Assembly (NCBI GenBank): GCA_963796275.1
Contig: CAWCKY010000003.1
Coordinates: 512,001-576,000 of the forward strand
Direction of reading: 5' to 3'
Origin: an uncultured Acidobacteriota bacterium
GTDB lineage: Bacteria; Acidobacteriota; Blastocatellia; RBC074
Length of the DNA stretch: 64,000 nt
Shown here: positions 26,937 through 53,368 of the stretch, piece by piece
Position numbering within the stretch: the stretch's first letter is position 1
Layout of the letters: each line of letters begins with the position of its first letter
Program-made: the position numbers and the translations under genes
Notes under the pieces: generated by a model
The model's database searches: none
Seen by the model: only the letters and a program-made list of their open reading frames with translations
Told to the model about the DNA's origin: nothing

Positions 26937-28211
26937 TCACTCTGTAATTTCTCGAACGACTCGAAAACCGACGTCGAAGCGCGATAAGGTGGGGAAGTGG
27001 AAGTTGCGCTCTGCGGTCCGCGTTGAAATCAGGCCAGGCGCAAAAGCACCTCCTCTAATGACACGCGCTTCTCCTTCACGGCCCAGCGCCTTCACCGTTT
27101 TACCGCGCGATGGACCTTTCGGATTGTTGCGCTCGACATCGCCATAGTATTCGGGATCGTACCAATCCTGGCACCATTCCCAAACTACGCCGATCGATTC
27201 GTAATTGTTGCCGATCAGCTGGGCAGCTTTTTCCCATTCCGCTTCAGTCGGTAGTCGATAGCGCTTGCCGGTCTGTCCCGAGAGCCACTGACAGAAGGCG
27301 ACCGCATCCTGCCAGCTAACTAACACGACGGGCCTGTCTGCGTGTCCTTCCGGATAATCGTTGCCGTTCCACCCATAAATGGCCCCGCGCGGGCCCGTCC
27401 GGCGCGTCGCGTCGACGAAGTGTTTGTAAAGTCGGTTCGTCACCTCTCTGGTTGATATCTCGAATTCTGAAATGAAGATTGTATTTGCGGGGCGCTGATC
27501 GCGCGGCCCATTATCGCTTCCTCTGGTTAAATTGCCTTCACTTACCAGCAGCATCTCAAGCTCGAGGTCCGGTTTGAGCGCAACACTGACGATCAAGGTC
27601 TCATCCGGATTGAGCGTCACTTTTATGTTCAAATCCTGAAACCCTTCTTTCACGGCGCGTAGTTGCTGCGGCCCAGGCTCCAGATCCTCGATAAAGGTAG
27701 TTTTTCCCGGATTGATCCTGACGCTGCCTCCGTTATCGATAAATACATCTATCTCCGGTTCATTGGCGACCAGAGCGATACGGGCGGCCGCAGGTTTCTT
27801 TTTTATCGGTACGTCGAATCTGTTTCCCGCACTGCTCATCGTGAAAGCGCCTTCCCAGTTCTCGTAGCCTTCGGCGCGGACACTCAATTGATGTTCGCCA
27901 GTCGTCACACCTGTCAGGATCAGTCTCCCGTCAACGCCGGAGAAGCCGCGCGATCTGCCATCGATTTCGATCAACGCCCCAGGCGGCGCGACGATAGTCA
28001 ATTTAGGATTGACAGCTGTCGGGCGCGGCTCGGCTGACTGCGAGTCTGTCAGGCGCGGCTCAACTCGCTCCGCCGGACGTTTGGCGGTCTTGACCACGGG
28101 CTTTTTCTTCGAAACTACACGGCCGGAAGGGTCTTGCGCGAGAAGAGAGAGGCACAAACAGGGGGCGATGACCGTTGTCAGACAGATAATAAATATTTTT
28201 TTGCTGATCAT
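26937..28211 (-). CDS. Exported PEGA + FGE-sulfatase (SUMF1-like) domain protein
   Basis: Two PEGA-like repeats, EVTN, RLPTEAEWEKAA, VWEWCQDWY, GFRVV. Confidence 0.88.
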   Translation of the reverse strand: MISKKIFIICLTTVIAPCLCLSLLAQDPSGRVVSKKKPVVKTAKRPAERVEPRLTDSQSAEPRPTAVNPKLTIVAPPGALIEIDGRSRGFSGVDGRLILTGVTTGEHQLSVRAEGYENWEGAFTMSSAGNRFDVPIKKKPAAARIALVANEPEIDVFIDNGGSVRINPGKTTFIEDLEPGPQQLRAVKEGFQDLNIKVTLNPDETLIVSVALKPDLELEMLLVSEGNLTRGSDNGPRDQRPANTIFISEFEISTREVTNRLYKHFVDATRRTGPRGAIYGWNGNDYPEGHADRPVVLVSWQDAVAFCQWLSGQTGKRYRLPTEAEWEKAAQLIGNNYESIGVVWEWCQDWYDPEYYGDVERNNPKGPSRGKTVKALGREGEARVIRGGAFAPGLISTRTAERNFHFPTLSRFDVGFRVVREITE

Positions 28212-28258
28212 GCTTTTATTGGATTGCGGGGGAATCTGTGATTCTCAGGGTCTGAGAG

Positions 28259-29947
28259 TCATTGCATTACATCTCGCACGCAGCGGAAACCGGTCTTGTC
28301 AAATCCTTTATCCGGTGGAACGACGCCGCGGTAGGTCGTCGTCGCGCGCGCTCGGGGGACATCATAGGCTCCTCCTCGTATCACCATGCCTGGAAGTATC
28401 ACTTTCGTTACCTCAGCATAATCGAACAAATTTCCAGAGGTCAACTCCCAGACATTGCCACACATATCGAGAGCACCGAACGGGCTGGCGCCCTGGCTGT
28501 AACTGCCGACGGCCGTTACTTTCCCTTTATTGCCGCGGTTGGCATTAGCATAACCCGTTTTCCACTCGTCCCCCCAGGGATAGATAAACTGTTGAGGGCC
28601 ACGCGCCGCGAATTCCCATTCGGCTTCAGTGGGCAATCTTTTACCCGCCCATTTTGCATAGGCGCTCGCATCCAACCATGATACGGTGACTACCGGATGT
28701 TTAGCTTCGCCCGCCTTGAAAGATTTTCCTCTCCAGCTGGTGGGCACGGGATATCCCGTGGCGCTGATAAACTTCATATACTCTTCGTTAGTGACTTCAG
28801 TGCGATCGATAAAGAATGGACCGACGATAACGCTGAGCGGCGGGGTCGCGTATTCACCGCCCTGAACGCGCCCCATCTGGAATTCCCCCCGCGGGACATA
28901 GACCATTCCTTCAACAGGCGCAACGGGCGCCCCCCCCGCGGTCCCCTGGTTACTTGGGGCGGCCGCATTTTCCTTGGCCGCCGCAACCGCGACCGGTATA
29001 GGTGTGGCAGCGCCGGGGGAAACATCTGTCCCCGCTGATGCCTGTGATTTGGTTTCCTCATCTGCAGGAGGGGGGGAGGCTGTCTCCGATCGCGAGAACC
29101 AAAAGACCAATACGCCTGAAATTATCAACGACAGCGCGATGCCGGTGATCACGCGGGGCGACTGAAGGGCCCTCACCACCCGGCCCGGTTCCGGTAATCG
29201 GTTGGCAACCAGTCGCCGCGCAAATCTTTTTATCTCTTGGATATTGGCTGGTGGTAGAGCTTGTCCCTTAAGCGGCTCAGCAGCATTGGATGGTAGAACC
29301 CGTTCCTTCACCGGCTCGCCATTGCCCGGACGCGCAGCGGATTGTTGAATGGTTGCCTGGCGCCCAGTGGCCACATGAGAAACATCGATAATGTCCCCCT
29401 CTCCACTCGCCGGAACCGTGACCGATATCGCCTCTTCGGATTTCGTTGTCAGCGAACTCGACTCATGCGTGAGCCATAACTTACCCTGGATTTCAATCTC
29501 CAGATTGATCCCGCATGTCTCGCAGAAGCGCGAGTACGGTTTCGCTTCCGCCGAGCATTCGGGGCATAAAACCTTTTCAATCCTGGAAGGCTCTTCGACG
29601 ATCTTGAGATCCTTGGCTCGGAGCTGGACCGGCGAAGCCGGCGCCGAAATCGGAGGCATCAATGAGCGATCGCGGTCGAGGCCGCACGTCTTGCAGAAGA
29701 ACCAGTCGCTGCGCCAGGAAGTCCCACAGTAATAGCAGGCGCCTACGAGCGCCTCCTCTGTTTTTACGCCAAGACGATATCCGCACTGTTGACAGAAGTT
29801 CTCGCCGCGAGTCACGCGCGCCCCACACCGCGTACAGCAGATCGATTCGACTACTGGTTCAACCGCAGTGCGAACGAGCGTTTTCCCACATCGACGGCAA
29901 TAATTCAGATGATCCGGATAATGTAGATCGCACGCCGCGCAGAACAT
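28259..29947 (-). CDS. Multiple zinc-ribbon + TM + FGE-sulfatase domain protein
   Basis: Eight CxxC motifs at the N-terminus, one TM, RLPTEAEWEFAARG, GNVWE, GFRCV. Confidence 0.88.
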   Translation of the reverse strand: MFCAACDLHYPDHLNYCRRCGKTLVRTAVEPVVESICCTRCGARVTRGENFCQQCGYRLGVKTEEALVGACYYCGTSWRSDWFFCKTCGLDRDRSLMPPISAPASPVQLRAKDLKIVEEPSRIEKVLCPECSAEAKPYSRFCETCGINLEIEIQGKLWLTHESSSLTTKSEEAISVTVPASGEGDIIDVSHVATGRQATIQQSAARPGNGEPVKERVLPSNAAEPLKGQALPPANIQEIKRFARRLVANRLPEPGRVVRALQSPRVITGIALSLIISGVLVFWFSRSETASPPPADEETKSQASAGTDVSPGAATPIPVAVAAAKENAAAPSNQGTAGGAPVAPVEGMVYVPRGEFQMGRVQGGEYATPPLSVIVGPFFIDRTEVTNEEYMKFISATGYPVPTSWRGKSFKAGEAKHPVVTVSWLDASAYAKWAGKRLPTEAEWEFAARGPQQFIYPWGDEWKTGYANANRGNKGKVTAVGSYSQGASPFGALDMCGNVWELTSGNLFDYAEVTKVILPGMVIRGGAYDVPRARATTTYRGVVPPDKGFDKTGFRCVRDVMQ

Positions 29948-30080
29948 TTGGTACCCTATCAACGATTAAAGTTATCTTAGCGAGGCACCTTCTCGGTCGT
30001 GGAATATCAACCCTAATCATAGGGCACCAGGATTTGTGTCGCAAGCACCGATGGCGGTCAGAATTTTCCGCATTTTCCGC

Positions 30081-30115
30081 TTGACATCCTTCGACGATTT
30101 TCGGTATATTTTCGG
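30081..30115 (+). promoter_or_regulatory. lexA promoter with overlapping direct repeat (candidate SOS box)
   Basis: TTGACA 30081-30086, TATATT 30105-30110; ATTTTCGG at 30097 and 30108 (11-bp period). Confidence 0.55.
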
Positions 30116-30137
30116 TTGTAAAAGGAGGCTACCGAAA

Positions 30138-30743
30138 ATGGCATTAACGCCAAGACAGCTTGAGATCTTCGATTTTCTGCTTCGTTTCCATCAGAAGCAT
30201 GGTTACGCGCCGACGATCGCGGAGATACAGAGCCATTTTGAGTTGAGTTCTCCCGCGACAATACACGAGCAGCTAGCCGTCCTCGAACGAGAAGGTAAGA
30301 TTCGGCGGCGGAAGAACATTCAACGCGGGATAGAAATTCTTCAGTCTTCCTTTACCGGGGGCGAATATGAGATACCGCTACTTGGTCAGGTCGCCGCAGG
30401 CTCGCCTATTGAAGCGATTTTACAGCGCGAAACGATATTGGTTGCGCCGGACCTCTACGGGCCGGAACGTTTTGCCCTCCGCGTTCGCGGAGATTCGATG
30501 AAGGACGAACAGATAGCCGATGGCGATTTCATCGTGGTCGAGCCGGCCGAAACCGCCCGCAACGGACAGACGGTGGTCGCTCTGGTTGACGACCACGAGG
30601 CGACGGTTAAGAAGTTATATAAAGAGAGCGGGCAAATCCGCCTCCAGCCGGCCAACGATCAATACAAACCCATAATTATCAAGCCGCCCCATAGAGTGAA
30701 AGTACAGGGATTAGTTGTCGGTCTCATCCGGCGATACAAGTAG
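30138..30743 (+). CDS. lexA: SOS repressor LexA
   Basis: AAGGAGG RBS; LTPRQ/PTIAEI wHTH, VAAGSPI cleavage site, GDSM catalytic Ser, TVKK catalytic Lys. Confidence 0.96.
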   Translation: MALTPRQLEIFDFLLRFHQKHGYAPTIAEIQSHFELSSPATIHEQLAVLEREGKIRRRKNIQRGIEILQSSFTGGEYEIPLLGQVAAGSPIEAILQRETILVAPDLYGPERFALRVRGDSMKDEQIADGDFIVVEPAETARNGQTVVALVDDHEATVKKLYKESGQIRLQPANDQYKPIIIKPPHRVKVQGLVVGLIRRYK

Positions 30744-30899
30744 AAGTTATTTTAGTGCTGCTGCTTGCTATCCCATTCTCTCTTAATTGTGCCGGTTGGA
30801 CGTATTGATTGTTGCATACTTGGGACGCAGATTGTTACTTGAAACTTTTATTATTCGGTTTCATTACGGGCTGGAATTCGGGCAAGTAATCAGGAATTG

Positions 30900-31560
30900 T
30901 AGAGAGTTTTCGATATCTCGCCTGCACCACTTGAACACTCAGCCATAGGGCGTCCACCCATCTCGGTTACCCGCGCCGGGATGGGTGTGACCAGCGCCCT
31001 GATAGATGGGCAGAGCGAGGTTGTGTTGAGTTTTTGATCAGACCCTCATCAGTTCTCTGGGAGTAGTCTGTTTGGTGATCGGCGCTCATGTTGATTACCT
31101 GATGGTCCATTGGTGCCGGTTTCACCGGTTGTTCTCAGAGGAGCAAAAAAACTCGAATCGAATTATTTGTTGTCGTGCTCCGAGGGCTCTGCCGTGACCG
31201 TTTAACGGCAGGGTAGTAGTCGAAGTCCGTCGTGTTGGGGAGAGATATCTCGACCCGTTAACTTAGGTTCACTCGTTTTGATACGAGATTATGAAGCCAT
31301 CATTGTCCGCGATAGTGGCTTTGATCTTAGCCCCGTCTTTGAGGTTGGTAGGATTCGAAAAATCCGGTTGCGCTGCGAGAGGAGTCTCGATTTTCAATTT
31401 AGCGGCTTTTGCTGCAATCCATCGAGTTATAGGACGGTATGTAATCGACGCTACCGGGTAACTAAATTTACCTCAACCAATCAGTTTTGCGAGGCCGGTT
31501 TAGGATCAAAAGCCGCGGCGCGGCAAGGTATCGAATTGCAAAATACCGGTTTTCAACAGG
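30900..31560 (+). ncRNA. Candidate large structured RNA (or ssDNA-folding element) of unknown family
   Basis: At least ten hand-identified stems; mispaired positions within stems are G-T on the + strand; no credible ORF. Confidence 0.45.
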
Positions 31561-31618
31561 AGCAAGTTGAGGGCTTTACAATCTTTATTAAAGATTTGGA
31601 GAAAGATTTGGAGAAAAT

Positions 31619-32320
31619 ATGACCAATGTTCAAGATACATTCAAGCACAATCGGGCGCGTAAAAACGTCATTGTCGGTGGCATGGTGATTCTAGTCGCAA
31701 TTACTTTACTGAGTTGTGTGTCTAGTTTCATGATTTATCGGGAAGGTTTCGCCGATCTACCGCCGATCTTCCAGCACGCGCTTGCTATGTTTGCCGTGAT
31801 CGTTGTCGAGGGGGCATTTGTCTGGCTGGTTTACGGCTTTACGAGGGCCTTCTCGTCATTTTGGGAGAGGATGATCTCATTTTTGGCGATGTGGGGACTG
31901 GCTGCGGTAATGCTCATCAATATCATCACTCATTTCATGATGGTTAAAGGGAATGGGCTTCATCCTTTCCAACAATCCTGGCTAGCCTGGGGAGCGGTCT
32001 CGGTATTTATCGGAGTACTGGTCATCGTTCTCGCCATTACGCTGGCAGACCCTGTGATCAGATTGATCAGGCTTGAATTAAAGTTCCTCGGCAAACAGCA
32101 GGAGACGATTCTGAATGCCAAGAGTGAAGGGCTCGAGAGCGAACGCGTTCACCAGGCTATGGCGCAACGAGCCGAGATAGAGTCCGAGCAACTGGCCGCG
32201 AGGATACTCGGCAGTTCCAAATATCTGCAACCGCAAATGATCAAGGGGTTCTCGGATGGAGGGCAATCATCAAGTTATAGCTATTCGCCGGGAAGCAAAG
32301 ATTATGACCCAAAAGCATAG
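31619..32320 (+). CDS. Hypothetical 4-TM membrane protein with C-terminal helical tail
   Basis: GGAG RBS within a 12-bp tandem duplication (31590-31613); four hydrophobic segments. Confidence 0.8.
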   Translation: MTNVQDTFKHNRARKNVIVGGMVILVAITLLSCVSSFMIYREGFADLPPIFQHALAMFAVIVVEGAFVWLVYGFTRAFSSFWERMISFLAMWGLAAVMLINIITHFMMVKGNGLHPFQQSWLAWGAVSVFIGVLVIVLAITLADPVIRLIRLELKFLGKQQETILNAKSEGLESERVHQAMAQRAEIESEQLAARILGSSKYLQPQMIKGFSDGGQSSSYSYSPGSKDYDPKA

Positions 32321-32325
32321 CGCCG

Positions 32326-32928
32326 TTGAGTCACGAGGCGTTATTAGGGATAACGCAGACAGCAGCGCCAGATCGCTCGCAGGATTCAGCGGCGCAAGCA
32401 CGAATCGCCATAGGCAATCCTGTGGCCAATCTGGATGGTCGCAGGCTTCGCCTGCTTTCCCGCGGGGAAGATGGTGCGAAGAGAGAGGGGACCGGGGAAA
32501 AAGATAGCGAGACCTCACAGATCGAACTCAGAAAGGAAGGAACGAACGGCCAACCTGTTGTCACCATAGCCCCATACATTAAACCCGCAAAAAGTCCGAC
32601 AAAGGGGCCGGCCAGGAGGGAGAAAACCGGGGAGGCAACCGGGGAGGCAAAGAAGACGAATCCCGGCATCAAAAAACGCCGGGGTGGAAAAAAGGGGGAG
32701 GAGGATATGCCACCAACGCCCTGGGGATGTGAATGGCTCAGGACCGACGATGGCTGGAATCTCTGGCGATATTGGTCGGAGAAGGATCGCCTGACTGGCC
32801 AGAGGATCAAGAAGAGCCGGTATACAGGTTATGTCAGTCATGATGCGTGGCAGGTTATGAAGGGGTACGACTATGAAACGTTCATCTCGATCATCGGCCA
32901 GCGGTTTCGCCGATACGGCCAGCGGTAA
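32326..32928 (+). CDS. Hypothetical protein (disordered basic N-half, Trp/Tyr-rich C-domain)
   Basis: 200-codon ORF; the C-terminal PWGCEWLRTDDGWNLWRYW...SRYTGYVS region looks globular; start uncertain. Confidence 0.6.
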   Translation: MSHEALLGITQTAAPDRSQDSAAQARIAIGNPVANLDGRRLRLLSRGEDGAKREGTGEKDSETSQIELRKEGTNGQPVVTIAPYIKPAKSPTKGPARREKTGEATGEAKKTNPGIKKRRGGKKGEEDMPPTPWGCEWLRTDDGWNLWRYWSEKDRLTGQRIKKSRYTGYVSHDAWQVMKGYDYETFISIIGQRFRRYGQR

Positions 32929-33139
32929 TCCGTTCGCCGTCTTTGAGATCATCGCCGATGCCAAAAAAATTCAGGAACAAGCTGGCAGCTCGGAGATAGG
33001 TGAGAGCGCCAGAAGAATCGAACAGCACGCAGACGGTATGGTGAAAACGATACTTGGGACTGCCGATATGTCTACTGCTGAACTGCCTGCCAGGGTCATA
33101 GAGCAGATAGTGGAGATGTTGCGCGCCTATCGACAGTGA
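32873..33139 (+). CDS. Hypothetical small helical protein
   Basis: Overlaps the previous ORF; amphipathic helical pattern. Confidence 0.55.
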   Translation: MKRSSRSSASGFADTASGNPFAVFEIIADAKKIQEQAGSSEIGESARRIEQHADGMVKTILGTADMSTAELPARVIEQIVEMLRAYRQ

Positions 33140-33184
33140 AGACCGAAAGGATGGGGATTTGAGAAACTCTATGTCCCTGATTGC

Positions 33185-33526
33185 ATGCGGATTGTCGCCG
33201 GAGCGGCTCTGATCGCGCTTATTGGGATGATTTTACTGGAAGAACGCGTTGTAAAACGCATGATAGCTTTGCCACAACCGCCGAAGGCAGTCTGCGTGTT
33301 ATTAACGATTTCGCAAACGCACCCGGATGGATCAAAAGTGTGGAACGGATATCTGATGGCAACGGTCATGAGGTCTGGCAGGAAGAAGATCGACGAGGTA
33401 CGAGCTGGAAACAATCAAATCGATCGCTCCCCGACGGCTCGTCCTGCGCATCAAAGACGAAAATTTCATTCGGAGGTATTTGGAATACGATATTACTGTG
33501 ACAACCGGAGGGCGGCAGTCAAATGA
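33185..33526 (+). CDS. Hypothetical protein with N-terminal hydrophobic anchor
   Basis: IVAGAALIALIGMILL segment; stop overlaps the next ATG (ATGA); true start may lie at 33136/33151 across an indel. Confidence 0.5.
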   Translation: MRIVAGAALIALIGMILLEERVVKRMIALPQPPKAVCVLLTISQTHPDGSKVWNGYLMATVMRSGRKKIDEVRAGNNQIDRSPTARPAHQRRKFHSEVFGIRYYCDNRRAAVK

Positions 33527-33717
33527 TCACCACGGATTGCGGAAAAATAAGAAATCCGATCTACCGATTTTTGTCGCGATTTATTTTCGGGTATGAGACG
33601 AGCCTCGATGATTACCTCAACGCACGCGCTGCCAGCTTCGGCGGAGGTTCTGCAATCACCGGTGAATCCGCCCTGGTTTTACGGTCGCTTCAACTAAGAA
33701 GGAGATTTCCCGCCCCG

Positions 33718-35055
33718 TCATCCGACATTCTCCATAATAACGCGCGCGAGCGCTTCCGCCTGACCGCGGATGATCGTTTCATCCTGGCCTTCTATCATTA
33801 CGCGAGCCTTGTTTTCGGTGCCGGAATAACGTACGAGCAATCGCCCCTTGCCATCTATATCCCGCTCGAGAGCGGCGATCGCATCGTTGATTGCCGGCAC
33901 GCTCTCGAAAGGCGGTTTGTGATTGACGTTCACATTTATTATGAATTGCGGATACCGTTTGAACCGACCGGCCAGATTGCTCAGCGACCGATTCGATTCG
34001 ACCATGACCCGAAGGACTTCGAGCGCCGTAATCATGCCATCCCCTGCCAGACTGATCTGGGGGAATATGATGTGACCGGATTGTTCGCCGCCTATGCTGC
34101 CCCCGGCTTTCAATAGTTCATCGAGAACGTTCTTATCGCCGACCGATGTGCGGGTGAGCCCGATGCCGAGCTGCGAGAGCGCTATTTCAAGGCCGAGGTT
34201 GCTCATAACGGTTGCAACTACCCGGTTGCCGGAGAGACGCCCTCTGGCAAAGAGATAATCGGCCATAACGAATAATATCTGATCGCCATCGATCAATTGT
34301 CCGACTTCGTCCACCATCAACAGGCGGTCGGCATCGCCATCGAATGCAATCCCCAGATGAGAACCGGTGCTCAACACGGCCTGCTGCAATTTTTCCGGAT
34401 GTAATGATCCGCAATCCAGGTTTATGTTTCGGCCGTTCGGTTCAGCGTTGATCACCGTCAATTGCGCTCCCAGCTGGGTGAAAAGACGTGGAGCGAGGCG
34501 ATACGATGCTCCGTTCGCGCAATCAATGACAATTTTCATCCGAGTCAGCTCAACGCCAATCTCATCGCACAAAAAAACCAGGTATCTGTCTTGAAGAGTC
34601 GGGTCGTTCTCCGCCGTCGTTTCAATGAACGGAGGCAGGCTTGATGGGTCATCCGTTAATGCGCGCTCGATCGACTGCTCTGTGGCGTCATCGAGTTTTT
34701 CTCCGGAAGGCGAGAATACTTTTATACCGTTATCCTGATACGGATTGTGTGATGCTGAGATTACGATGCCGGCGTCGGCACCGAGAGCGCGCGTCAGGTA
34801 AGCCACGCCCGGAGTTGTAATGATGCCTGCCGATCGCGCGCTGGAACGAGCCGCGTGTATGCCCCGAAGGATCGCCGCTTCGATCCATTCGCCCGATTCC
34901 CGGGTATCTCGTCCGATGATGATCGCGGGTGCGCGGTCGAGTTTCAGCGTCAATTCTTTAGCCAGCTCATATCCTATCCGTTCGATCGTCTGCGGATCGA
35001 GAGGATAACGTCCGGCCACACCTCTGATTCCATCTGTGCCGAATAATTCGCCCAT
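33718..35055 (-). CDS. glmM: Phosphoglucosamine mutase
   Basis: LFGTDGIRG, GRDTRESG, ISASHNPYQDNGIK, DGDADR, GEQSGH, RYSGTE. Confidence 0.96.
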   Translation of the reverse strand: MGELFGTDGIRGVAGRYPLDPQTIERIGYELAKELTLKLDRAPAIIIGRDTRESGEWIEAAILRGIHAARSSARSAGIITTPGVAYLTRALGADAGIVISASHNPYQDNGIKVFSPSGEKLDDATEQSIERALTDDPSSLPPFIETTAENDPTLQDRYLVFLCDEIGVELTRMKIVIDCANGASYRLAPRLFTQLGAQLTVINAEPNGRNINLDCGSLHPEKLQQAVLSTGSHLGIAFDGDADRLLMVDEVGQLIDGDQILFVMADYLFARGRLSGNRVVATVMSNLGLEIALSQLGIGLTRTSVGDKNVLDELLKAGGSIGGEQSGHIIFPQISLAGDGMITALEVLRVMVESNRSLSNLAGRFKRYPQFIINVNVNHKPPFESVPAINDAIAALERDIDGKGRLLVRYSGTENKARVMIEGQDETIIRGQAEALARVIMENVG

Positions 35056-48890: not shown

Positions 48891-49039
48891 GCCGCATCTC
48901 CTCCTCGCCCAACATATTTTTCAAACTATACTCGGTAAGAAAAACATTTTCCATTTTTCATCTTATATTTTTCATGTTTATCTTCCCGGGCTTGACGGAC
49001 TTACCCGATGCGTTGTAAGGTTCAGCTTCTAAAATTTAA

Positions 49040-49090
49040 TCGTGGTGATTTATGGCGGCTTGCTCCACGTAAATAATGCGCTAAAAAGCC
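49040..49090 (+). promoter_or_regulatory. SAM-II-like riboswitch aptamer 1
   Basis: P1 CGTGG/CCACG, loop TGATTT, TTGC pairing with GCTAA, GGCT/AGCC; matches the SAM-II pseudoknot pattern. Confidence 0.8.
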
Positions 49091-49114
49091 CGATGGCTCC
49101 TGCAGATAGGAATT

Positions 49115-53278: not shown

Positions 53279-53368
53279 ATTCTGTCGTTCCTCCGTATGT
53301 TTTTTAAGTTTCAGATTTTTCAATCGCCGATCGAGACCTAAATGAAACCGAAAATTTTCATCTCTTCT

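What the first reader, a model, noticed from the sequence alone, without database searches (positions are those of the whole stretch)
30900..31560. Candidate ~650-nt structured RNA between lexA and an orphan membrane-protein gene
SEEN: the 875-bp gap after lexA has no credible ORF but many stems. These include CACCCATCTCGG(30955-66)/CCGGGATGGGTG(30976-87), nested in AGGGCG(30947-52)/CGCCCT(30995-31000) and CTCGC-CTGC(30917-25)/GCAG-A-GCGAG(31010-19). Others are GGAGCA(31140-45)/TGCTCC(31176-81), CTCTGCCGT(31187-95)/ACGGCAGGG(31205-13), CTCGT/ACGAG(31272-87), GAAGCCAT(31293-300)/GTGGCTTT(31315-22), GGATT/AATCC(31351-65), CGAGA-GGAG-TCTCG(31376-89), TTGAGGT(31339-45)/ACCTCAA(31470-76) and GCCGC/GCGGC(31512-24). 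Non-Watson-Crick pairs in these stems are G-T on the + strand, which favours folding of the + strand, the same sense as the downstream genes. I do not recognise tmRNA, RNase P, SRP, 6S or group II intron signatures. KNOWN: OLE RNA is a large RNA encoded directly upstream of its membrane partner OapA; the protein here does not resemble OapA, so this is only an analogy. INFERENCE: a new large ncRNA linked to a membrane protein, or a single-strand origin of a mobile element.
Basis: partly seen in the sequence, partly recalled or inferred. Interest (0 to 1): 0.8.

Follow-up and report, generated by a model that had tools for sequence, protein, structure and literature searches.

The report
Small conserved RNA beside lexA
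The proposed 650-base RNA is really a conserved folded RNA element of about 105 bases at the head of a stress-type gene cluster next to lexA in one family of soil Acidobacteria, followed by about 600 bases of unconserved spacer.

Summary
The gap (30744-31618) and every listed stem exist. Excess folding is concentrated in the first ~105 nt: 30914-31022 (+) has z = -5.34, with 0 of 200 shuffles as good.

Only this stretch is conserved. Model R1 finds exactly one copy in 57 of 87 genomes of the same family. Model R2 finds none in 112 genomes of nine other families of the class. No Rfam family matches.

The long hairpin covaries strongly: 94.9% of cells are paired, 16 of 20 pairs have double changes, and 0 of 500 shuffles reach this. 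G-U pairs outnumber A-C cells 70 to 12, which points to the + strand.

The remaining ~600 nt is unalignable or replaced even in close relatives.

The membrane protein is not an orphan: it has 542 homologues. In 50 of 50 genome loci the first recognised downstream gene is co-oriented. It belongs to a variable cluster of membrane protein, orf2, orf3, a DinB-family gene and a glyoxalase/bleomycin-resistance-like gene.

Best reading: a new cis-regulatory leader RNA, with a stand-alone small RNA as the main rival. No transcript data were available.

The parts
30081..30116 (+). lexA promoter-like site (TTGACA, 18 nt, TATATT) overlapping a direct repeat TTTCGGT-N4-TTTCGGT at 30099-30116, the candidate LexA operator
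   Evidence: Promoter scan gives 11 of 12 matches. The repeat is conserved upstream of lexA in relatives. It is the only exact match in the window.
30138..30743 (+). lexA
   Evidence: Pfam LexA_DNA_bind 1.3e-17 and Peptidase_S24 5.2e-31. It is the only full-length LexA in the genome.
30914..31019 (+). The conserved structured RNA element (whole, closing stem included)
   Evidence: z = -5.34. CM hits of 37-110 bits, one per genome. The conserved island has sharp edges in close relatives.
30915..30925 (+). P1, 5' strand (pairs with 31010-31020)
   Evidence: MFE fold. The 5' 22 nt pair with the 3' flank better than shuffles in g1, g5 and g2 but not in g12: mean z -1.1, n = 45. RNAalifold predicts a 9-bp P1 in seven g5 sequences.
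30919..30946 (+). Conserved, apparently unpaired 5' block (GCCUGCACCACUUGAAC, a linker of variable length, then ACUCAGCC)
   Evidence: Alignments A3 and A4. Across relatives the linker length varies by up to about 13 nt.
30947..30952 (+). P2, 5' strand (pairs with 30995-31000)
   Evidence: Helices 1 and 2 are 85-95% paired.
30954..30967 (+). P3, 5' strand of the long hairpin (pairs with 30975-30988)
   Evidence: Helices 3 and 4: 13 of 13 pairs show changes on both sides, 95.5-97.7% paired.
30968..30974 (+). Conserved apical 7-nt loop (UACCCGC here; consensus URCCCGC)
   Evidence: Alignment A4. The closing pair varies C-G, U-A and U-G.
31010..31020 (+). P1, 3' strand, followed by a U-rich tract (31021-31037)
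   Evidence: GGGCAGAGCGA is conserved in L192. A31012>G in near relatives keeps a pair as U-G.
31021..31618 (.). Unconserved spacer with lineage-specific hairpins; not part of the conserved RNA
   Evidence: no conservation; 31150-31233 and 31361-31511 are replaced in near relatives. Unique in the genome.
31553..31582 (+). Weak sigma-70-like promoter match 37 nt upstream of the membrane-protein start
   Evidence: 9 of 12 matches; the scan found 7 sites against 3.8 expected, so this is weak evidence.
31619..32320 (+). Membrane protein ('memb'), first gene of the downstream cluster
   Evidence: 542 homologues, no Pfam family. Downstream of the element in relatives.
32326..32928 (+). orf2, a conserved protein of unknown family
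   Evidence: tblastn synteny. No Pfam, PADLOC or PHROG match.
32873..33139 (+). orf3, a conserved 88-aa protein
   Evidence: tblastn synteny at 60-85% identity.

Best explanation
The region is not one 650-nt RNA. Its first ~105 nt (30914-31019, + strand) is a previously undescribed, single-copy structured RNA restricted to one family of Blastocatellia (Acidobacteriota). The class name comes from source names on homologues of the neighbouring protein.

Anatomy: a closing stem P1; a conserved C/A-rich unpaired block; a short stem P2; an internal loop; and a long covarying hairpin P3 capped by a conserved 7-nt loop URCCCGC.

It sits at the head of a co-directional, variable gene cluster that lies between a SUMF1-like gene and glmM and is often just downstream of lexA. 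The cluster draws on a membrane protein, orf2, orf3, a DinB-family protein and a glyoxalase/bleomycin-resistance-like protein.

Inferred mechanism: it acts in cis as a leader or attenuator. The folded state, stabilised by an unknown ligand or protein, brings the 5' block and the 3' flank together in P1. In some lineages P1 is followed by a U-run and would terminate transcription before the cluster.

The ~600 nt that follow in this genome are a fast-evolving spacer.

Shown: existence, structure, strand, distribution and synteny. Inferred: that it is transcribed, that it acts in cis, and that it switches.
For: Conservation island.
- BLAST of the 875-nt gap against 40 relatives aligns essentially only gap positions 150-257, which is window ~30893-31000.
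- In a near-relative contig covering 30903-31150, all 11 substitutions and 3 gap letters lie at or after 31004.
- In contig L192, whose lexA product is 92% identical, the element including the P1 3' strand is kept while both flanks are unalignable.

Distribution.
- R1 finds one hit in each of 57 of 87 family genomes, in 12 of 17 genera.
- R2 hits 27 of 38 family genomes and 0 of 112 genomes from nine other families.
- As a negative control, 581 kb of GC-rich loci picked by a loose pattern gave at most 19.8 bits, against 37-110 bits for true hits.
- All 24 metagenome loci picked by a 5'-block pattern carry it: 23 full-length and 1 cut by the contig end.

Structure.
- 45 distinct sequences, 94.9% of cells paired, 16 of 20 pairs with double changes, 0 of 500 shuffles reaching the observed values; slid controls are 33-47% paired.

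Strand.
- G-U plus U-G 70 against A-C plus C-A 12.

Link to the cluster.
- In 50 of 50 genome loci the first gene recognised downstream is co-oriented: memb 30, a DDE_Tnp_1_assoc ORF followed by memb 9, an alternative membrane protein 4, glyoxalase 4, DinB 3.
- The same holds in 21 of 23 metagenome loci; the other two have 231 nt or less of downstream sequence.
- The element persists where lexA is not the upstream neighbour (18 of 50 loci). In L046 the upstream gene is divergent, so a separate promoter is required there.
- In g11 and g17 it lies 46-117 nt upstream of a DinB-family gene, and in g2 83-97 nt upstream of a glyoxalase gene.
- In g2 a 9-bp P1 is directly followed by U5-7; in L045 the hairpin is followed by UUUGUUUUU.
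- Genera lacking the element (g15 0/14, g7, g9, g13, g6 0/6) also lack close memb homologues.
Against: - No transcript evidence: the one RNA run covers only lexA 30293-30512.
- No promoter could be placed upstream of the element.
- Distances to the next gene are long and variable, 108-680 nt, and 617 nt in this window.
- In five genera (g1, g4, g10, g14, g16) another ORF lies between the element and memb.
- A promoter-like site lies just upstream of memb here.
- A second conserved block 40-60 nt upstream of memb in g12 and g5 could be memb's own promoter.
- U-runs follow the element in only 21 of 45 distinct sequences, against 12 of 45 upstream.
- P1 is not supported in g12.
- The co-occurrence of the element with memb is confounded by phylogeny.
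- A4 was fitted to the model, so pair counts lean towards the structure.
- 'First downstream gene' means the first one recognised by my 11 protein queries; unrecognised ORFs in between are not excluded.
Confidence: 0.5

Rival explanations
1. A stand-alone trans-acting small RNA of about 110 nt. The conserved unpaired C/A-rich 5' block and the C-rich loop would be seed regions. The GC-rich hairpin, or P1, plus U-run would be its terminator. Linkage to the cluster would be synteny only.
For: This is the classic small-RNA layout. Terminator-like ends are present in g2, in L045 and in G002 (U9), and a U-rich tract follows P1 in the window. Possible separate promoters lie close to memb. G002 has a clear terminator between lexA and the element. 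The element is single-copy and conserved in sequence, not only in structure.
Against: No U-run within 60 nt in 24 of 45 distinct sequences. The own genome holds no target complementary to the 18-nt 5' block at up to 2 mismatches; shorter seed matches were not evaluated. The element is always co-oriented with, and upstream of, one variable cluster even when its neighbours change.
Confidence: 0.22
2. A lexA 3'-UTR or intercistronic element (a stability, processing or terminator structure) that sets how much SOS-driven transcription from the lexA promoter reaches the downstream genes.
For: lexA lies 127-666 nt upstream and is co-oriented in 32 of 50 genome loci. No terminator is evident between lexA and the element in this window. 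Candidate LexA operators are found only at the lexA promoter.
Against: The element persists in 18 of 50 loci without lexA in the fetched flank; four of these have less than 700 nt of upstream sequence. In L046 the upstream gene is divergent. G002 has a terminator directly after lexA. A plain terminator would not need a conserved loop and a conserved 5' block.
Confidence: 0.12
3. One reading: one large (~650 nt) structured RNA spanning 30900-31560.
For: The whole region and the remainder alone fold better than shuffles: z = -4.44 and z = -3.32 for 31021-31618. All listed stems exist.
Against: The - strand is nearly as good, -4.11 and -2.90. The remainder is not conserved in the same genus or in L192. 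The segments 31150-31233 and 31361-31511, which carry several of the listed stems, are replaced by unrelated sequence in near relatives. In other genera the gap between the element and the next recognised gene is as short as 46-123 nt.
Confidence: 0.04
4. A DNA-level element: a single-strand origin, a recombination or attachment site, or a protein-binding site.
For: Inverted repeats are also DNA features, and the - strand of the element folds with z = -3.1.
Against: Compensatory changes keep pairing rather than sequence. G-U against A-C asymmetry of 70 to 12. One copy per genome in stable chromosomal synteny. No repeats. No replication or recombinase gene was recognised nearby in this window.
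Confidence: 0.03

Closest known systems
Orphan riboswitch candidates and cis-regulatory leader motifs found by comparative genomics (Weinberg/Breaker-type motifs); kind recalled
   Same: Size of about 100 nt. Covarying stems with conserved loop and junction nucleotides. Consistent position upstream of, and co-oriented with, a defined set of genes. Narrow taxonomic range.
   Different: No ligand, start site or expression platform is shown. Leaders are long and variable in many lineages. It matches none of the 4227 Rfam 15 models.
Terminator-embedded aptamer of the HMP-PP (thiS motif) riboswitch (PMC6478431; only the search listing and the start of the abstract were seen)
   Same: In g2 the closing stem of the fold is itself followed by a U-run, so fold and terminator coincide.
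   Different: No sequence or structural likeness. Here the stem encloses about 80 nt of structure. The U-run is lineage-specific.
OLE RNA with its membrane partner OapA
   Same: A structured RNA encoded next to a membrane-protein gene.
   Different: OLE is about 600 nt and conserved over its whole length; here only about 105 nt is conserved. No Rfam OLE hit. In some lineages the neighbour is a DinB-family or glyoxalase gene instead of a membrane protein.
DNA-repair-associated RNA motifs in Rfam (Pedo-repair, radC; names recalled)
   Same: Structured RNAs that lie beside DNA-damage-related genes.
   Different: No match to any Rfam model at E<=10 apart from one chance-level hit to Pseudomon-groES.

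Membership tests
Any Rfam 15 family (including OLE, 6S, tmRNA, RNase P, SRP, known riboswitches and ribozymes) | Covariance-model score at or above the family's gathering threshold | tested here: not met
   No gathering-level hit in the gap. At E<=10 the only hit is Pseudomon-groES, 15.9 bits against 50, on the - strand. ARAGORN finds no tRNA or tmRNA in 30000-34500.
OLE-like large RNA | Conservation of sequence and structure over about 600 nt | tested here: not met
   Only about 105 nt is conserved.
Structured non-coding RNA (generic) | Compensatory base changes that preserve helices across diverged sequences | tested here: met
   16 of 20 pairs have double changes, 94.9% of cells paired, 0 of 500 shuffles reach this, slid controls at most 47% paired. 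Caveat: the alignment was fitted to the model.
Structured non-coding RNA (generic) | Not protein-coding | tested here: met
   Hit lengths range from 83 to 96 nt, with linker indels that are not multiples of three. Conservation is nearly invariant, without three-base periodicity. There is no tblastn match to the neighbouring ORF family.
Riboswitch or cis-regulatory leader | Located in the 5' untranslated region of the regulated genes, on the same strand | tested here: inconclusive
   Upstream of and co-oriented with the cluster in 50 of 50 genome loci and in 21 of 23 metagenome loci. No start site was mapped, and promoter-like sites lie nearer the genes.
Riboswitch or cis-regulatory leader | Expression platform (a terminator or ribosome-binding-site sequestering helix that competes with the fold) | tested here: inconclusive
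   P1 plus U-run in g2, hairpin plus U-run in L045, U9 in G002. A U-run is present in only 21 of 45 distinct sequences. No convincing pairing with the memb ribosome-binding site.
Riboswitch or cis-regulatory leader | Specific ligand or protein binding that changes expression | not testable with these tools
   Needs in-line probing and reporter assays.
Trans-acting small RNA | Own promoter and terminator giving a discrete short transcript | tested here: inconclusive
   Terminator-like ends occur in some lineages only. No conserved promoter was found. RNA reads do not cover the element.
Single-strand origin or other mobile-element site | Association with a mobile element (replication or transfer genes, variable location, repeats) | tested here: not met
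   One copy per genome. Fixed chromosomal synteny from the SUMF1-like gene to glmM across genera. No repeats of the gap in the genome.

The most novel reading that the evidence does not exclude
The element is the aptamer of a new riboswitch class, or the sensor of a new protein-responsive attenuator. It would give a LexA-independent second input to a damage or xenobiotic-response cluster (an unknown membrane protein, orf2, orf3, a DinB-family protein and a glyoxalase/bleomycin-resistance-like protein) beside lexA. The closing stem would double as the terminator in some lineages.
Probability: 0.25. Interest if true: 0.75.

Novelty: new member of a known kind. Interest (0 to 1): 0.55.

Why it matters
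Acidobacteria are abundant in soil, and the searches run here found no described RNA regulator at this locus.

This is a well-supported new RNA family. It covaries strongly, is single-copy, and occurs in 57 of 87 genomes of one family. It heads a cluster that joins three uncharacterised proteins to DinB-family and glyoxalase/bleomycin-resistance-like genes next to the SOS repressor gene.

If it is a sensor, its ligand would indicate what this cluster responds to, and it would add an RNA layer to the neighbourhood of the SOS regulon.

It also corrects the record. There is no OLE-like large RNA here, and the membrane protein is a widespread Blastocatellia family rather than an orphan.

Tried and rejected
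- **Decayed gene in the gap.** tblastn with the DDE_Tnp_1_assoc ORFs that lie between the element and memb in relatives found nothing in the gap.
- **Repeat or MITE.** The gap is unique in the 9.46-Mb genome.
- **LexA control of the element.** The direct-repeat operator (TTTCGGT-N4-TTTCGGT) occurs only at lexA promoters. There is none near the element in any locus at up to 2 mismatches. A 3-mismatch site at 30853-30870 is at chance level, 10 found against 7.8 expected.
- **Promoter reading of the 5' block (sigma-70, sigma-54, ECF).** Rejected by eye, because the linker between its two conserved parts varies in length.
- **Pseudoknot between the loop or the 5' block and the flanks.** No consistent partner was seen. 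Loop against memb ribosome-binding site gives only about 4 nt.
- **Trans target.** No 18-mer antisense match at up to 2 mismatches; short seeds were not evaluated.
- **RNA evidence.** The one RNA run laid (X4) covers only lexA 30293-30512, so it says nothing about the element.
- **Protein clues.** Pfam, PADLOC and PHROGs gave nothing usable for memb, orf2 or orf3. The Atlas gave only unnamed clusters, some with phage members, for memb, and scores of 0.81 or less for orf2; these are leads only.
- **Loose genome scan.** It served only as a negative control.
- **Literature.** Four full-text searches and a term search inside PMC11109978 (0 occurrences of six terms) found no description of this element. 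Subscription papers and supplements were not searchable.

Full report
**What is in the window.** lexA is 30138-30743 (+), with Pfam LexA_DNA_bind and Peptidase_S24 matches. It has a strong sigma-70-like promoter at 30081-30110. An 875-nt gap follows (30744-31618). Next comes a 233-aa membrane protein at 31619-32320 (+) with no Pfam family. After it lie orf2 (32326-32928), orf3 (32873-33139) and a convergent glmM-like gene.

**The stems are real, but the folding signal is uneven.**
- 30900-31560 folds better than shuffles on both strands: + z = -4.44 and - z = -4.11, 20 shuffles each.
- Split up, the signal lies at the 5' end. 30914-31022 (+) has z = -5.34, with 0 of 200 shuffles as good.
- Later sub-windows on the + strand give -1.71, -2.36, +0.04 and -1.20.
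- The remainder as one piece (31021-31618) still gives -3.32 (+) and -2.90 (-). Two coding controls of equal length give -1.84 and +0.24.
- So the remainder is richer in inverted repeats than chance, but this is not strand-specific.

**Only about 105 nt is conserved.**
- BLAST of the gap against 40 relatives aligned essentially only gap positions 150-257, which is window ~30893-31000, in 11 of 24 genomes of the same family and 0 of 16 from other families.
- A finer blastn found nothing else significant.
- DNA contigs of near relatives cover 30903-31150 with 11 substitutions and 3 gap letters, all at or after 31004. They replace 31150-31233 and 31361-31511 with unrelated sequence of similar length.
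- A metagenome contig whose lexA product is 92% identical (L192) keeps the element from about 30913 to 31018, including the 3' strand of the closing stem. Both of its flanks are unalignable.
- A same-genus genome (G002) shares only the element and a few short blocks.
- The gap holds no decayed copy of the ORF found at this place in relatives and no genomic repeat.

**A new RNA family.**
- Rfam 15 has no match, and ARAGORN finds nothing.
- Covariance model R1, built from eight sequences, finds exactly one hit in each of 57 of 87 family genomes, in 12 of 17 genera, at 37-110 bits.
- Model R2, rebuilt from 50 hits, hits 27 of 38 family genomes and 0 of 112 genomes from nine other families of the class.
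- As a negative control, R2 was run on 80 of the 120 loci that the loose pattern returned, 581 kb of GC-rich sequence. It gave at most 19.8 bits.
- All 24 metagenome loci picked with a pattern for the 5' block carry the element: 23 full-length and 1 cut by the contig end.
- One positive genome, G004, the only member of genus g3, is unpublished. Without it the counts are 56 of 86 genomes and 11 of 16 genera.

**Structure and strand.** On 45 distinct sequences, 94.9% of cells form standard pairs and 16 of 20 pairs show changes on both sides. No measure is reached by any of 500 shuffles, and sliding the partners drops pairing to 33-47%. The alignment was fitted to the model, which favours the structure. 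Even so, the hairpin changes wholesale between genera while staying paired.

G-U plus U-G cells number 70 against 12 A-C plus C-A cells. The RNA is therefore read from the + strand, the sense of lexA and of the downstream genes.

The anatomy, from 5' to 3':
- P1, 5' strand (UCUCGCCUGC here)
- a nearly invariant unpaired block (CCUGCACCACUUGAACC)
- a linker of variable length, then ACUCAGCC
- P2
- an internal loop
- P3, of 10-14 bp
- a conserved 7-nt loop URCCCGC, whose closing pair varies C-G, U-A and U-G
- P2, 3' strand
- P1, 3' strand

P1 is lineage-dependent. The 5' 22 nt pair with the next 60 nt better than with shuffles in g1, g5 and g2, but not in g12. The mean duplex energy is -16.9 against -13.8 kcal/mol, with mean z -1.1 over 45 sequences. 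RNAalifold recovers a 9-bp P1 in seven g5 sequences. Genus g12 instead carries an extra covarying hairpin upstream.

**Context.** tblastn with eleven proteins on 50 oriented genome loci gives one map:

SUMF1-like gene (-) | [lexA +] | element + | [DDE_Tnp_1_assoc ORF] | membrane protein | orf2 | orf3 | [DinB-family] | [glyoxalase/Ble-like] | glmM (-)

The first recognised downstream gene is co-oriented in 50 of 50 loci:

| First recognised downstream gene | Loci |
|---|---|
| memb | 30 |
| DDE_Tnp_1_assoc ORF, then memb | 9 |
| a different membrane protein | 4 |
| glyoxalase | 4 |
| DinB-family | 3 (Pfam) |

- Metagenome contigs repeat this in 21 of 23 loci; the other two have 231 nt or less of downstream sequence. 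They also show the full order memb-orf2-orf3-DinB-glyoxalase.
- lexA is the upstream neighbour in 32 of 50 loci.
- In g5 the upstream gene is divergent, and G002 has a terminator right after lexA. The element therefore does not depend on lexA read-through.
- The candidate LexA operator, a direct repeat TTTCGGT-N4-TTTCGGT, is found only at lexA promoters.
- memb has 542 homologues, some named as from Blastocatellia.
- Genera without the element also lack close memb homologues. This pattern is confounded by phylogeny.

**Mechanism (inferred).** The element keeps its place at the head of a cluster whose content changes. It lies 46-117 nt from the next recognised gene in g11, g17 and g2. In g2, L045 and G002 a terminator-like end is formed by or follows the fold. 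Together these favour a cis-acting leader or attenuator, at about 0.5.

The points against are listed in full in the Against line. In brief:
- there are no transcript data;
- leaders are long and variable;
- promoter-like sequences lie nearer memb;
- U-runs follow the element in only 21 of 45 distinct sequences.

The rivals are a stand-alone small RNA (about 0.22), a lexA 3'-UTR or intercistronic element (about 0.12), the 650-nt RNA (about 0.04) and a DNA-level site (about 0.03). That the ~105-nt element is a real, conserved, + strand RNA structure I put at about 0.85.

**Comparison and novelty.** The element works most like an orphan riboswitch or leader motif, and it belongs to no family in Rfam 15. 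In four full-text searches and one in-paper term search I found no description of it; subscription papers and supplements could not be searched. The OLE analogy and the Acidobacterium LexA-box literature are recalled from memory, not read here.

**Verdict.** The finding is a new member of a known kind, of moderate interest.

Noticed in passing
window 30099-30116; relatives' lexA promoters: A direct repeat TTTCGGT-N4-TTTCGGT (three copies in g12) overlaps the lexA promoter and is conserved across genera. It is a candidate LexA operator for this family, of the direct-repeat type rather than a palindrome.
   Followed up: partly
window 31619-33139 and relatives (L202, L187, L201, L183, L186, L179, L188, L181): A conserved co-directional cluster of membrane protein, orf2, orf3, DinB-family and two-domain glyoxalase/Ble-like genes. 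The first three have no Pfam, PADLOC or PHROG family. In some g12 genomes the membrane protein is swapped for an unrelated one.
   Followed up: partly
L005:1813-2175, L002:776-1273 and seven further loci: A stand-alone 120-165 aa ORF made only of the DDE_Tnp_1_assoc domain (PF13808). It holds a fixed position between the RNA element and the membrane-protein gene in five genera. The own genome has no copy.
   Followed up: partly
relatives, 40-60 nt upstream of the membrane-protein start (for example L030, L025, L054): A second conserved block (about GGGAGAAGUGUGUCUUGAUC in g12, with a related form in g5). It may be the gene's own promoter or a second RNA element. It is not seen in this window.
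   Followed up: no
window 31150-31233 and 31361-31511: In DNA contigs of near relatives these two segments are replaced by unrelated sequence of almost the same length (82 by 81 nt, 149 by 146 nt), while the neighbouring sequence stays alignable.
   Followed up: no
window 49032-49105 (+): A marginal Rfam hit to the alphaproteobacterial SAM riboswitch (SAM_alpha, 37.5 bits against a gathering score of 36) in an acidobacterial genome. It lies about 315 nt upstream of a short-chain dehydrogenase gene that is followed by a threonine-synthase-like gene.
   Followed up: no
window 26937-29962 (-): Two neighbouring genes for proteins with SUMF1/formylglycine-generating-enzyme-like C-terminal parts (read by eye from the translations, no family search). 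The second has repeated zinc-ribbon-like N-terminal motifs. Its homologue is the conserved left border of the locus in relatives.
   Followed up: no
window 53336-53353 (-): A one-mismatch copy of the candidate LexA operator lies between what look like DAHP-synthase and prephenate-dehydratase genes (read by eye from the translations). It is probably chance.
   Followed up: no
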